From Candidatus Thorarchaeota archaeon (GTDB lineage Archaea > Asgardarchaeota > Heimdallarchaeia > Hodarchaeales > Hodarchaeaceae), in contig JBHLRO010000030.1 of assembly GCA_048882505.1 (NCBI GenBank), positions 1 to 32,000 on the forward strand: a DNA stretch of 32,000 bases. The letters run 5' to 3'. Numbering within the stretch: position 1 is the first letter of the stretch; each line of letters opens with the position of its first letter. This document shows positions 19,071-19,225 of the stretch, one piece after another. The notes under the pieces are model-generated. The model searched no databases and was not told where the DNA came from. It saw nothing but the letters and a program-made list of their open reading frames with translations. A program made the position numbers and the translations under genes.

Positions 19071-19225
19071 CCGGAAGTTAAGCCGAGTTTCGTTCTGATC
19101 TGTACTGTTATGCGCGAGCTTACGGGAACATCAGAAAACGGGTATTGCCCGTTCATAGGGCTCGAGTAACACCCGGTCTCATTCCGAAAGATATGAAGGA
19201 ATTTCTTCATTCCGGGAACCCGGAA
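19071..19225 (+). rRNA. rrf: 5S rRNA gene, circularly permuted (3' half 19077-19143, ATT linker, 5' half 19147-19188, intron, 19219-19225)
   Basis: Conserved 5S blocks CCGGAAGTTAAGCC, loop E TGTA/GAA, GCGA tetraloop, CATAG and AACACCCGGTCTCATTCCGAA are all present but in swapped order. Helices: I GCCCGTT/AACGGGT, II GGGCTCG/CGAGTTTC, III CCGG/CCGG, V TTCTGAT/ATCAGAA. Confidence 0.9.
19189..19218 (+). other. Putative 30-nt archaeal-type (BHB/BHL) intron in 5S loop C
   Basis: Its removal restores the consensus TCTCATTCCGAA|CCCGGAA. Central helix TCCG/CGGG, AAA bulge, and intron stem GA..ATGAAG/CTTCAT..TC. Confidence 0.7.

What the first reader, a model, noticed from the sequence alone, without database searches (positions are those of the whole stretch)
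19071..19225. Three CCGG elements make the two splicing motifs mutually exclusive: an ordered, self-gating RNA maturation switch
Seen: CCGG at 19220-23 can pair with the leader CCGG (19071-74, circularisation motif) or with 19173-76 (helix III, which closes the intron motif). It can also fold back into the perfect hairpin TTCCGG-GAAC-CCGGAA (19210-19225), which would hide both motifs. Inference: processing must be sequential, for example circularisation removes the leader copy, helix III re-forms and the intron is then presented. The near-duplicate CTTCATTCCGGGAACCCGGAA of the loop-C junction also suggests the permutation arose from a tandem duplication.
Basis: inference. Interest (0 to 1): 0.7.

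Follow-up and report, generated by a model that had tools for sequence, protein, structure and literature searches.

The report
CCGG pairings in permuted 5S gene
The repeated CCGG words belong to a back-to-front 5S ribosomal RNA gene of an Asgard archaeon that also carries a probable 30-base intron; their competing pairings are real but mostly follow from the gene's layout and are not a purpose-built switch.

Summary
CCGG sits at 19071, 19173 and 19220, and the hairpin 19210-15/19220-25 is perfect. There is also a fourth CCGG at 19212, inside a 30-nt insert.

The locus is a circularly permuted 5S rRNA gene. This scan has already found that layout in at least 53 other Asgard genomes. My model finds it in 78 of 83 genomes of the class.

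The leader CCGG and the trailer CCGG form the central helix of a terminal bulge-helix-bulge motif. Its outer helix covaries strongly. The 19173 and 19220 copies are the two strands of 5S helix III.

The same three-element competition and a 5-bp form of the hairpin occur in relatives without the insert. So they follow from a breakpoint in helix III and are not a device for ordering two events.

Only G000 and one sister genome carry the insert. It has a splice-type motif in the exact register that restores the conserved loop C (0.34% of shuffles).

Folding contradicts mutual exclusivity, because both motifs fit in one nested structure and forming the terminal one favours the intron one. Folding does favour circularisation first: the intron helix rises from P 0.002 in the linear precursor to about 0.85 in the 149-nt circle.

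No RNA data were available. The tandem-duplication inference is not supported.

The parts
19056..19070 (+). Leader strand of the leader-trailer processing stem (helix A). The core 7 bp is GATCCTG at 19064-70.
   Evidence: It pairs with 19227-41 in every fold (P 0.92-0.99 for the core). In 23 relatives the homologous helix has 9 of 11 pairs with changes on both sides.
19071..19074 (+). Leader CCGG. It is the 5' strand of the 4-bp central helix of the terminal bulge-helix-bulge motif, and it also mimics the helix III 3' strand.
   Evidence: It covaries with the trailer element: CTGG/CCAG in G021, and CCGA/TCGG and CGTG/CACG in other Asgard families.
19075..19077 (+). Leader-side bulge AAG, with the inferred 5' cut between 19076 and 19077.
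   Evidence: It lies directly 3' of the central helix. The cut position is inferred from the symmetry of the motif. Any symmetric cut 0-2 nt after the helix gives the same product.
19077..19188 (+). Body of the permuted 5S rRNA. In order: proximal helix III 3' strand, helix II 3' strand, helices V/IV, helix I closed by loop 19144-46, helix II 5' strand, helix III 5' strand, and the first part of loop C.
   Evidence: Rfam 5S aligns its 3' two thirds at 20.3 bits. After rotation it is collinear with canonical 5S, and alifold returns the 5S three-way junction. Helix coordinates come from the fold of the 119-nt circle.
19173..19176 (+). CCGG, the 5' strand of distal helix III.
   Evidence: In the naked linear precursor it is occupied by the leader CCGG (P 0.98).
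19183..19186 (+). TCCG, the exon strand of the intron's 4-bp central helix.
   Evidence: It pairs with CGGG 19213-16, including one G.U. P is 0.68-0.86 in the 149-nt circle.
19187..19189 (+). AAA bulge, with the inferred 5' splice site between 19188 and 19189.
   Evidence: Unpaired at P 0.95-0.98 in the circle. The register restores CATTCCGAA|CCCGG, as in all relatives.
19189..19218 (+). 30-nt insert, a putative BHB/BHL-type intron. Its boundaries could shift left by up to 2 nt because of the A run.
   Evidence: It is absent from 23 aligned relatives and from all other hits in 83 class genomes. It is present in G016 and in DNA contigs of 4 runs from 3 studies. A motif in the exact register occurs in 0.34% of shuffles.
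19190..19212 (+). Inner hairpin of the insert: GA(T)ATGAAG / CTTCATTC, with loop GAATTT.
   Evidence: P 0.83-0.99. The only strain difference within the insert, T19203A, lies in the loop.
19212..19215 (+). Fourth CCGG, inside the insert. It overlaps CGGG 19213-16, the intron strand of the central helix.
   Evidence: It pairs with the trailer CCGG in the linear precursor (P 0.99) and with the exon TCCG in the circle.
19217..19219 (+). AAC, with the inferred 3' splice site between 19218 and 19219. It can alternatively form a 3-bp inner helix with GTT 19077-79 of the terminal motif.
   Evidence: It is flanked on the 3' side by a CCGG helix with either partner, so the motif is of the relaxed (BHL) kind.
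19219..19225 (+). 7-nt micro-exon CCCGGAA, lying between the intron 3' splice site and the terminal 3' cut. It contains CCGG 19220-23, which is both the helix III 3' strand and the trailer strand of the terminal central helix.
   Evidence: Read directly from the sequence, with the cut sites inferred above.
19224..19226 (+). Trailer-side bulge AAA, with the inferred 3' cut between 19225 and 19226.
   Evidence: AAA is invariant in 23 relatives and sits between the central helix and helix A.
19227..19241 (+). Trailer strand of the processing stem (helix A).
19210..19225 (+). Competing local hairpin TTCCGG-GAAC-CCGGAA.
   Evidence: Local free energy -7.8 kcal/mol. P is 0.4-0.99 per pair in the linear precursor and 0.06 in the circle. 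Most relatives have a 5-bp version, TTCCG-AACC-CGGAA.

Best explanation
The CCGG words are working parts of a circularly permuted 5S rRNA gene, and their competition follows from where the gene is broken. The copies at 19173-76 and 19220-23 are the two strands of distal helix III. The breakpoint lies just after the AA bulge of that helix. The leader must therefore carry a complement of the trailer CCGG (19071-74) to build the 4-bp central helix of a terminal bulge-helix-bulge motif. The splicing endonuclease should cut after CCGGAA on both sides, and RtcB should join A19225 to G19077, which recreates the canonical sequence. The fourth CCGG (19212-15) lies in a 30-nt insert specific to this lineage. 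The insert is most likely a relaxed BHB (BHL) intron, with central helix TCCG:CGGG, bulges AAA and AAC, and an inner hairpin. Removing it restores loop C exactly. In the naked transcript the four palindromes pair off as leader:helix III and insert:trailer, which masks both motifs. When the leader pairs with the trailer instead, the insert copy is freed to form the intron helix, so the two motifs are coupled and not exclusive. Once the leader is gone, the intron motif becomes the ground state. The likely route is therefore circularisation, then splicing, then a 119-nt circle. This order is a preference, not an obligatory gate. The cuts, the ligation and the order are all inferred.
For: - **No other 5S gene.** No canonical 5S is found in G000, and there is only one permuted copy.
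- **5S identity.** The rotated sequence is collinear with canonical 5S and folds into helices I-V.
- **Terminal motif.** Helix A is 88% paired, 9 of 11 pairs change on both sides, and the signal collapses when partners are slid.
- **Three-way covariation.** The leader, helix III and trailer elements covary: CTGG/CTGG/CCAG in G021, and CCGA/TCGG and CGTG/CACG in other families.
- **Distribution.** The layout is in 78 of 83 class genomes and 95 of 151 sampled phylum genomes.
- **Competition is generic.** Relatives without the insert show the same competing folds.
- **Insert.** Only G000 and G016 carry it. It is real DNA in 4 runs. An in-register motif occurs in 0.34% of shuffles.
- **Folding energies and probabilities.**
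- **Enzymes.** A catalytic EndA of the A. pernix alpha type (E 1e-41), a beta-like paralogue lacking the catalytic His, and RtcB are all present.
- **Enzyme specificity.** (alpha-beta)2 enzymes with the specific loop cut relaxed motifs, and that loop is reported as conserved in Asgard (PMC5829648).
- **Gene under constraint.** Strain changes T19088C and T19090C turn U.G pairs into C-G pairs in helix II.
Against: - No RNA evidence exists for any cut, junction or order.
- The insert occurs in one shallow lineage, so its helices have no covariation support.
- Its 3' splice site lies in a loop, not in a clean 3-nt bulge, and it lacks an adjacent outer helix.
- Both processing motifs have P of about 0.002-0.003 in the predicted ensemble of the linear precursor. 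The model therefore does not by itself predict that either is used.
- The nearest-neighbour energies are for naked RNA at 37 C. They ignore proteins and folding during transcription.
- I did not check residue by residue that this EndA has the specific loop.
Confidence: 0.55

Rival explanations
1. One reading: the CCGG elements form an RNA-intrinsic gate that makes the two cleavage motifs strictly alternative and enforces an obligatory order. Circularisation removes the leader copy, helix III forms, and only then is the intron presented.
For: The intron central helix goes from P 0.002 in the linear precursor to 0.68-0.86 in the 149-nt circle. The local hairpin and the leader:helix III pairing mask both motifs in the precursor. 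The exon between the two 3' cut sites is only 7 nt (19219-25), so simultaneous cleavage would risk losing it, which gives a selective reason for order. Sequential processing of multiple BHB motifs is documented for permuted, intron-bearing tRNA-Gly of C. merolae (PMC3978253).
Against: The two motifs are nested and positively coupled in the model. The joint cost is +7.0 kcal/mol against +9.5 for the sum, and P(intron motif given terminal motif) is about 58 times the unconditional value. Relatives without the insert carry the same elements and competing folds, so these did not evolve to order two events. The intron motif does not need helix III, because the leader CCGG gives the same flanking helix. 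In C. merolae the intron was removed before the terminal motif, so no general rule favours circularisation first.
Confidence: 0.15
2. The 30-nt insert is not spliced. It is a lineage-specific expansion of loop C kept in the mature 5S. The extra CCGG and the hairpins are simply its stem, and only one processing event, at the termini, occurs.
For: In the 149-nt circle the insert folds as a stable stem-loop extending from loop C. Its 3' splice site is not in a clean bulge. Part of the insert is a local duplication of loop C (TCATTCCG twice), a common way for expansions to arise. A 5S rRNA with a long retained insertion is known in Halococcus morrhuae (from my own knowledge, not checked here).
Against: The insert splits the CCGAAC core of loop C, which is conserved as CCGA[A/T]C in all 23 relatives. 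A 4-bp helix flanked by 3-nt AAA and AAC in the one register that restores the conserved sequence is rare by chance (0.34% of shuffles). The genome has many intron-bearing tRNA genes and a broad-specificity type of endonuclease.
Confidence: 0.22
3. The locus is a decaying 5S pseudogene in this lineage, the working 5S gene lies in the unassembled 5% of the genome, and the CCGG pattern has no function.
For: G000 is 94.55% complete in 83 contigs. The G016 assembly breaks inside this gene.
Against: Neither G000 nor G016 has any other 5S-like hit. Outside the insert the gene keeps every invariant position of the family. The terminal motif is intact. Two strain substitutions strengthen helix II pairs. 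The same form is present in contigs of four runs.
Confidence: 0.04

Closest known systems
Permuted and intron-bearing tRNA genes of Cyanidioschyzon merolae, such as tRNA-Gly(CCC), and of Thermofilum pendens (Soma et al. 2013, PMC3728597; review PMC3978253; Chan et al. 2011, PMC3218864)
   Same: The 3' half is encoded before the 5' half. The termini form a BHB motif that is processed into a circular intermediate. A second BHB-type intron lies in the same precursor. Processing is sequential, in an order that follows the free energy of the motifs.
   Different: The RNA here is 5S rRNA, not tRNA. The two motifs are only 7 nt apart and share alternative pairings through four CCGG palindromes, whereas those of C. 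merolae fold independently. In tRNA-Gly the intron went first, while folding here favours the terminal motif first. No later opening of the circle by RNase P or tRNase Z is apparent here.
Permuted, circular SRP RNA of Thermoproteus tenax (Plagens et al. 2015, PMC4731332)
   Same: A non-tRNA structural RNA gene is permuted. Its termini are cut by the tRNA splicing endonuclease and ligated, so the functional RNA is a circle.
   Different: It is a different RNA. It has no additional intron, and no competition with a native helix of the mature RNA is described. The SRP case is confined to one genus, whereas the 5S permutation spans much of a phylum.
Relaxed BHB (hBH, HBh', BHL) introns cut by (alpha-beta)2 or epsilon2 splicing endonucleases with a specific loop (Kaneta et al. 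2018, PMC5829648)
   Same: There is a 4-bp central helix with one proper 3-nt bulge and the other splice site in a loop. The genome has a catalytic alpha and a non-catalytic beta-like paralogue.
   Different: The host RNA is a 5S rRNA and the insertion site is loop C. Cleavage has not been shown.
BHB processing stems of archaeal pre-16S and pre-23S rRNA with circular intermediates (PMC12918454, PMC7758197)
   Same: A leader-trailer helix carries a BHB motif, followed by EndA cleavage and circularisation.
   Different: PMC12918454 states that this pathway applies to 16S and 23S but not 5S rRNAs. In that pathway the gene order is canonical and the central helix is not a mimic of an internal helix of the mature RNA.
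Permuted organellar 5S rRNAs (Valach et al. 2014, PMC4267664)
   Same: These are 5S rRNA molecules whose order is permuted relative to the canonical one.
   Different: They are organelle genomes. I know of no BHB motif or splicing-endonuclease route there, and I read only the abstract.

Membership tests
5S rRNA (Rfam RF00001) | Score at or above the gathering threshold of 38 bits on the genomic sequence | tested here: not met
   The score is 20.3 bits, with only the 3' two thirds aligned sensibly. The whole genome has no hit. This is expected for a permuted gene.
5S rRNA (Rfam RF00001) | Helices I-V and the conserved loop sequences in canonical order after rotation of the circle | tested here: met
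   The rotated sequences of G000 (insert removed) and 23 relatives align collinearly with canonical 5S, and alifold gives the three-way junction. The MFE of the 119-nt circle is the 5S fold. Helices I, II, IV and V covary.
Archaeal bulge-helix-bulge motif, terminal (circularisation) copy | 4-bp central helix flanked on opposite strands by 3-nt bulges, each 3' of its strand | tested here: met
   The central helix is CCGG(19071-74):CCGG(19220-23), with bulges AAG and AAA. In relatives the pairs are 16-23 of 23 standard, with one pair changed on both sides.
Archaeal bulge-helix-bulge motif, terminal (circularisation) copy | Outer helix supported by covariation | tested here: met
   9 of 11 pairs have changes on both sides. 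No shuffle out of 500 reaches the observed covariation score, and slid controls collapse.
Archaeal bulge-helix-bulge motif, terminal (circularisation) copy | Inner helix next to the 5' cut (strict hBHBh' form) | tested here: inconclusive
   Only GUU:AAC (3 bp) is available, and it is made of conserved 5S residues. The middle pair is broken in 7 of 23 relatives. The motif is probably of the relaxed kind.
Archaeal bulge-helix-bulge motif, terminal (circularisation) copy | Cleavage by EndA and ligation by RtcB | not testable with these tools
   The genes are present, but no RNA run was listed.
Archaeal BHB/BHL intron (the 30-nt insert) | 4-bp central helix with 3-nt bulges in a register whose cuts restore the conserved exon sequence | tested here: met
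   The helix is TCCG:CGGG (one G.U), with bulges AAA and AAC. Cuts 0-2 nt after each strand give CATTCCGAACCCGG, as in all relatives. This occurs in 2.1% of shuffles, or 0.34% when an adjacent inner helix is also required.
Archaeal BHB/BHL intron (the 30-nt insert) | Outer (exon-exon) helix adjacent to the central helix | tested here: not met
   T19182/C19220 and their neighbours do not pair. Helix III or the leader CCGG flanks the 3' bulge only, with 6 unpaired nt (TCTCAT) opposite. It is therefore BHL, not strict BHB.
Archaeal BHB/BHL intron (the 30-nt insert) | Covariation of the intron helices, or a spliced RNA | not testable with these tools
   Only two near-identical carriers exist, and no RNA runs were listed.
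RNA conformational switch that orders processing | The two functional conformations are mutually exclusive | tested here: not met
   A nested structure holding both motifs exists at -58.3 kcal/mol. Its ensemble cost of +7.0 is below the sum of the single costs, +4.0 and +5.6.
RNA conformational switch that orders processing | The alternative pairings are specific to, and conserved with, the two-step pathway | tested here: not met
   The same alternative pairings occur in relatives that lack the insert. The local hairpin stems from conserved 5S sequence (5 bp in 15 of the 24 relatives scored).
RNA conformational switch that orders processing | The first event makes the substrate of the second | tested here: met
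   This was tested in silico only. The intron central helix has P 0.002 in the linear precursor and 0.68-0.86 in the circle.

The most novel reading that the evidence does not exclude
The four CCGG palindromes act as a partner-swapping network. The primary transcript is doubly masked, with leader:helix III and insert:trailer paired. Capture of the leader:trailer pairing by the endonuclease frees the insert copy. Loss of the leader then locks in helix III and the intron motif. The two cut-and-join events therefore run one after the other, and the 7-nt micro-exon is never released. This would be an RNA-encoded order of processing in the maturation of a circular ribosomal RNA.
Probability: 0.15. 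Interest if true: 0.65.

Novelty: new variant of a known kind. Interest (0 to 1): 0.5.

Why it matters
The gene under this finding is remarkable. It is a 5S rRNA that can only be rebuilt by tRNA-type cutting and joining, and the layout is shared by most Asgard lineages sampled here. It also explains why 5S genes "could not be predicted" in closed Heimdallarchaeum genomes (PMC8813620).

This genome adds a second layer. A probable intron sits 7 nt from the circularisation junction, so two endonuclease/ligase events must be coordinated on one small RNA. That makes the locus a natural test case for how archaeal cells order several BHB-type events, a question so far studied only in algal tRNAs.

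The specific claim of a purpose-built CCGG gate is weak. The competition is inherited from the permuted layout, and the two motifs are not exclusive.

Tried and rejected
- **RNA evidence.** No RNA holder was listed for the locus, either with kind "any" on 401 nt or with kind "rna" on the gene alone. Expression, junctions and order could therefore not be examined.
- **Laying DNA contigs of four runs.** This shows only that the insert is present in DNA in every contig that covers it. It says nothing about RNA.
- **Other insert-bearing genes.** An exact-flank pattern scan found only G016 in genome contigs and nothing in metagenome contigs. A looser family-wide pattern also found nothing in metagenome contigs. 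Hit lengths in 83 class genomes show no other insert in loop C.
- **Copies of the insert elsewhere in G000.** Only chance-level matches of 12-18 nt were found.
- **Alignment A1.** MAFFT placed the G000 insert wrongly, so A2, built without G000, was used for the pair counts.
- **Two constrained rows for the circular fold.** The rows "helixIII" and "helixIII+intronBHL" gave energies inconsistent with the unconstrained MFE, which already contains those pairs. I disregard them and rely on the unconstrained MFE and on the pair probabilities.
- **ARAGORN intron calls.** These are noisy, and several introns of kilobase length are implausible. I use them only to say that intron-bearing tRNA genes are common here.
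- **Alternative reading of the second loop C copy.** I considered that 19204-19218 is the real loop C and 19177-19203 is removed. I rejected this because it would give CCGGGAAC in place of the CCGAAC/CCGATC core conserved in loop C.
- **Alternative terminal motif.** I considered one that uses the insert CCGG (19212-15). I rejected it because no trailer strand of helix A follows that copy.

Full report
**What is in the sequence.**
One search confirms CCGG at 19071-74, 19173-76 and 19220-23, and the perfect hairpin TTCCGG(19210-15)-GAAC-CCGGAA(19220-25). Four copies in 155 nt compare with 0.18 expected from the window's density (P 3.7e-5). The pattern is therefore not chance, and it needs a structural explanation.

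**What the locus is.**
- Rfam finds only a sub-threshold 5S match here (20.3 bits; the gathering score is 38), and only the 3' two thirds of the model align sensibly.
- The whole genome (4.3 Mb, 94.55% complete) has no 5S hit.
- Read in order, the stretch contains the 3' strand of helix III (from GTTAAG at 19077), helix II 3' strand, helices V/IV, helix I closed by a 3-nt loop, helix II 5' strand, helix III 5' strand and loop C.
- After rotation, G000 (insert removed) and 23 relatives are collinear with canonical 5S. Their consensus fold is the 5S three-way junction. The MFE of the 119-nt circle is the 5S fold.
- This scan has noted the same permuted layout in at least 53 other Asgard genomes.
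- My own covariance model finds it in 78 of 83 genomes of the class and in 95 of 151 sampled genomes of the phylum.
- Twenty loci from other families have the same breakpoint, just after the AA bulge of helix III.
- The record title of the sister genome G016 names a Heimdallarchaeota MAG.
- I found no paper describing a permuted archaeal 5S gene.
- Wu et al. 2022 state that 5S genes "could not be predicted" in closed Heimdallarchaeum genomes (PMC8813620).
- A 2026 study describes circularisation as a feature of 16S and 23S "but not 5S rRNAs" (PMC12918454).

**The roles of three of the CCGG words.**
- In all relatives the precursor reads leader-stem, CCGG, AAG, GTTAAG ... CCGAAC, CCGG, AAA, trailer-stem.
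- This has the geometry of a bulge-helix-bulge motif: an outer helix, a 4-bp central helix (leader CCGG with trailer CCGG), and a bulge 3' of each central strand.
- Symmetric cuts 0-2 nt after each central strand excise 120-122 nt in relatives and 149 nt in G000. Joining the ends recreates CCGAACCCGGAA|GTTAAG, the canonical junction of loop C and helix III.
- The outer helix is strongly supported. It is 88% paired, 9 of 11 pairs change on both sides, no shuffle out of 500 reaches the observed covariation score, and slid controls collapse.
- The central helix covaries too. G021 has CTGG in the leader, CTGG in the helix III 5' strand and CCAG in the trailer. Other families use CCGA/TCGG or CGTG/CACG.
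- So 19173-76 and 19220-23 are the two strands of distal helix III, and 19071-74 is the leader partner that the cleavage motif needs.
- A breakpoint in the 3' strand of helix III forces the leader to carry a complement of that strand. Three mutually complementary elements are therefore unavoidable.
- In this class the word happens to be a palindrome, so any two of the copies can pair.

**The insert and the fourth CCGG.**
- *Distribution:*
  - G000 differs from every relative by 30 nt (19189-19218) placed inside CCGAA|CCCGG.
  - Only G016 shares it, both among GTDB species representatives with these flanks and among 83 class genomes.
  - Two scans of JGI metagenome contigs found no other carrier.
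- *It is real DNA:*
  - Contigs from four runs in three studies cover it without gaps.
  - One strain differs by T19203A, which lies in a hairpin loop.
- *Splice-type motif:*
  - Exon TCCG (19183-86) pairs with CGGG (19213-16).
  - Each strand is followed by a 3-nt bulge, AAA and AAC.
  - An inner hairpin closes the element.
  - Cuts 0-2 nt after each strand restore CATTCCGAACCCGG exactly.
- *Chance:* in 200,000 shuffles of the insert, 2.1% had a central helix in register, and 0.34% had that plus an adjacent inner helix.
- *Motif class:* the outer helix is missing, so this is a relaxed (BHL) motif.
- *Enzymes for such a motif are encoded:*
  - One EndA paralogue is very similar to the catalytic alpha subunit of Aeropyrum pernix (E 1e-41).
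  - A second, beta-like paralogue lacks the catalytic histidine.
  - RtcB is also present.
- *Enzyme specificity:*
  - Kaneta et al. 2018 report that (alpha-beta)2 enzymes with the specific loop cut relaxed motifs, and that this loop is conserved in Asgard (PMC5829648).
  - I did not verify the loop residue by residue.
- *The gene is under constraint:* strain changes T19088C and T19090C convert U.G pairs of helix II into C-G pairs.
- I conclude that the insert is probably an intron (about 0.6). The main alternative is a retained expansion of loop C.

**Is there a switch?** I folded the precursor 19050-19245 and its derivatives (ViennaRNA, 37 C, naked RNA).

| Substrate | Measure | Value |
|---|---|---|
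| Linear precursor | leader CCGG : helix III 5' strand | P 0.98 |
| Linear precursor | leader CCGG : trailer CCGG (central helix of the terminal motif) | P 0.003 |
| Linear precursor | intron central helix (19183-86:19213-16) | P 0.002 |
| Linear precursor | cost of forcing the terminal motif | +4.0 kcal/mol |
| Linear precursor | cost of forcing the intron motif | +5.6 kcal/mol |
| Linear precursor | cost of forcing both motifs | +7.0 kcal/mol |
| 149-nt circle | helix III | P 0.84-0.92 |
| 149-nt circle | intron central helix | P 0.68-0.86 |
| 149-nt circle | 5' splice-site bulge unpaired | P 0.95-0.98 |
| Spliced linear precursor | cost of forcing the terminal motif | +4.2 kcal/mol |

- They are nested and compatible. 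The joint cost is less than the sum of the single costs. Pairing leader with trailer breaks both masking helices and frees the insert copy, so the motifs are positively coupled and not exclusive.
- They would clash only if the enzyme needs the 3-bp inner helix GUU:AAC of the terminal motif. That helix is broken in 7 of 23 relatives.
- Once the leader is gone, the picture flips and the unconstrained MFE of the circle shows the intron motif closed by helix III.
- Splicing first gives no such gain.
- The isolated terminal motif is also far more stable than the intron motif (-23 against -7.7 kcal/mol).
- In C. merolae, multiple BHB motifs are processed in the order of their free energies (PMC3978253).
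- In silico, then, circularisation followed by splicing is the favoured route. It is a preference, not a gate.

**Why I do not read this as a purpose-built device.**
- Relatives without the insert need only one event, yet they show the same picture. In 12 of the 13 relatives folded, the leader element pairs with the helix III 5' strand and the trailer CGG sits in a local hairpin, with the cleavage-competent fold usually 1-4 kcal/mol above the MFE.
- The local hairpin comes from conserved 5S sequence (TTCCG-AACC-CGGAA). It is 5 bp in 15 and 4 bp in 7 of the 24 relatives scored, and a canonical, probably bacterial, 5S (L002) can form it too.
- The insert lengthens it to 6 bp and adds one more palindrome.
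- One real argument for order remains. The exon between the intron's 3' splice site and the terminal 3' cut is only 7 nt (CCCGGAA, 19219-25). If both flanking cuts happened before a ligation, this piece would be held by 4 bp only.

**The tandem-duplication inference.**
- The near-duplicate of loop C (TCATTCCG at 19179-86 and at 19207-14) is real, and it is unlikely by chance (roughly 0.002 by a simple count).
- It exists only in G000 and G016, while the permutation is shared across the class and much of the phylum.
- It therefore records the origin of the insert, not of the permutation.
- The 6-nt direct repeat CCGGAA at both ends of the gene is compatible with the usual duplication model for permuted genes. 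It is equally required by the cleavage motif.

**Limits.**
- No RNA data exist for this organism in the runs served.
- The cuts, the ligation, the circularity of the product, removal of the insert and the order of events are all inferred.
- The folding numbers are for naked RNA. They should be read as directions, not as rates.

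Noticed in passing
G000-G203; loci L069-L088: A covariance model of the permuted 5S precursor hits 78 of 83 genomes of the class and 95 of 151 sampled genomes of the phylum. Most hits cover the full model at 60-180 bits. Twenty loci from other families share the same breakpoint after the AA bulge of helix III. Families f11 and f20 have almost no hits, and f17 has only weak partial ones, so these may keep a canonical or differently arranged 5S.
   Followed up: partly
G023:C510:3656-3975: Two permuted 5S copies lie in tandem. 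The weak canonical-order Rfam hit at 3727-3884 (31 bits, 158 nt) spans their junction. Read in canonical order, the trailer plus leader therefore behaves like an intron in helix III.
   Followed up: partly
L001 (G023:C798) and L002 (G005:C310): High-scoring canonical 5S genes (about 80 bits) sit on short contigs of two MAGs that also carry permuted copies. The sequences look bacterial, so bin contamination is likely.
   Followed up: no
L087 (G197:C7:20068-20314): This permuted 5S gene, from another class, has an extra GC-rich stretch of about 35 nt in the loop that closes helix I. It could be an expansion or another intron.
   Followed up: no
G016:C27 end and G016:C32 end (L034, L007): The sister genome's assembly breaks inside the 5S gene, and the two contig ends overlap by 77 nt. 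This suggests strain heterogeneity (TTT versus CTC at 19088-90) or a second copy.
   Followed up: partly
window 19088, 19090, 19203: A strain variant in run X4 (the same as G016) changes two U.G pairs of helix II to C-G pairs and changes one loop base of the insert hairpin. It has no indel in the insert.
   Followed up: yes
G000:C18:41332-41586 and G000:C18:72299-72559 (L036, L037): Two splicing-endonuclease paralogues lie 31 kb apart on one contig. One is a 182-aa catalytic alpha of crenarchaeal type. The other is a 213-aa beta-like protein without the catalytic histidine.
   Followed up: partly
whole genome G000: ARAGORN calls introns in 23 of 39 tRNA genes. Many are 14-47 nt long. Several calls of 0.3-1.8 kb are probably artefacts.
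   Followed up: no
window 15395-15468: An ordinary tRNA-Val(CAC) gene, 61 bits, 65% G+C in a 42% G+C window.
   Followed up: no
window 18990-19022: A/T-rich TTTAA-type boxes lie 50-80 nt upstream of the leader CCGG. Relatives and other Asgard families show a TTTATA-like box about 40-45 nt upstream. This suggests a stand-alone promoter and a very short leader.
   Followed up: no
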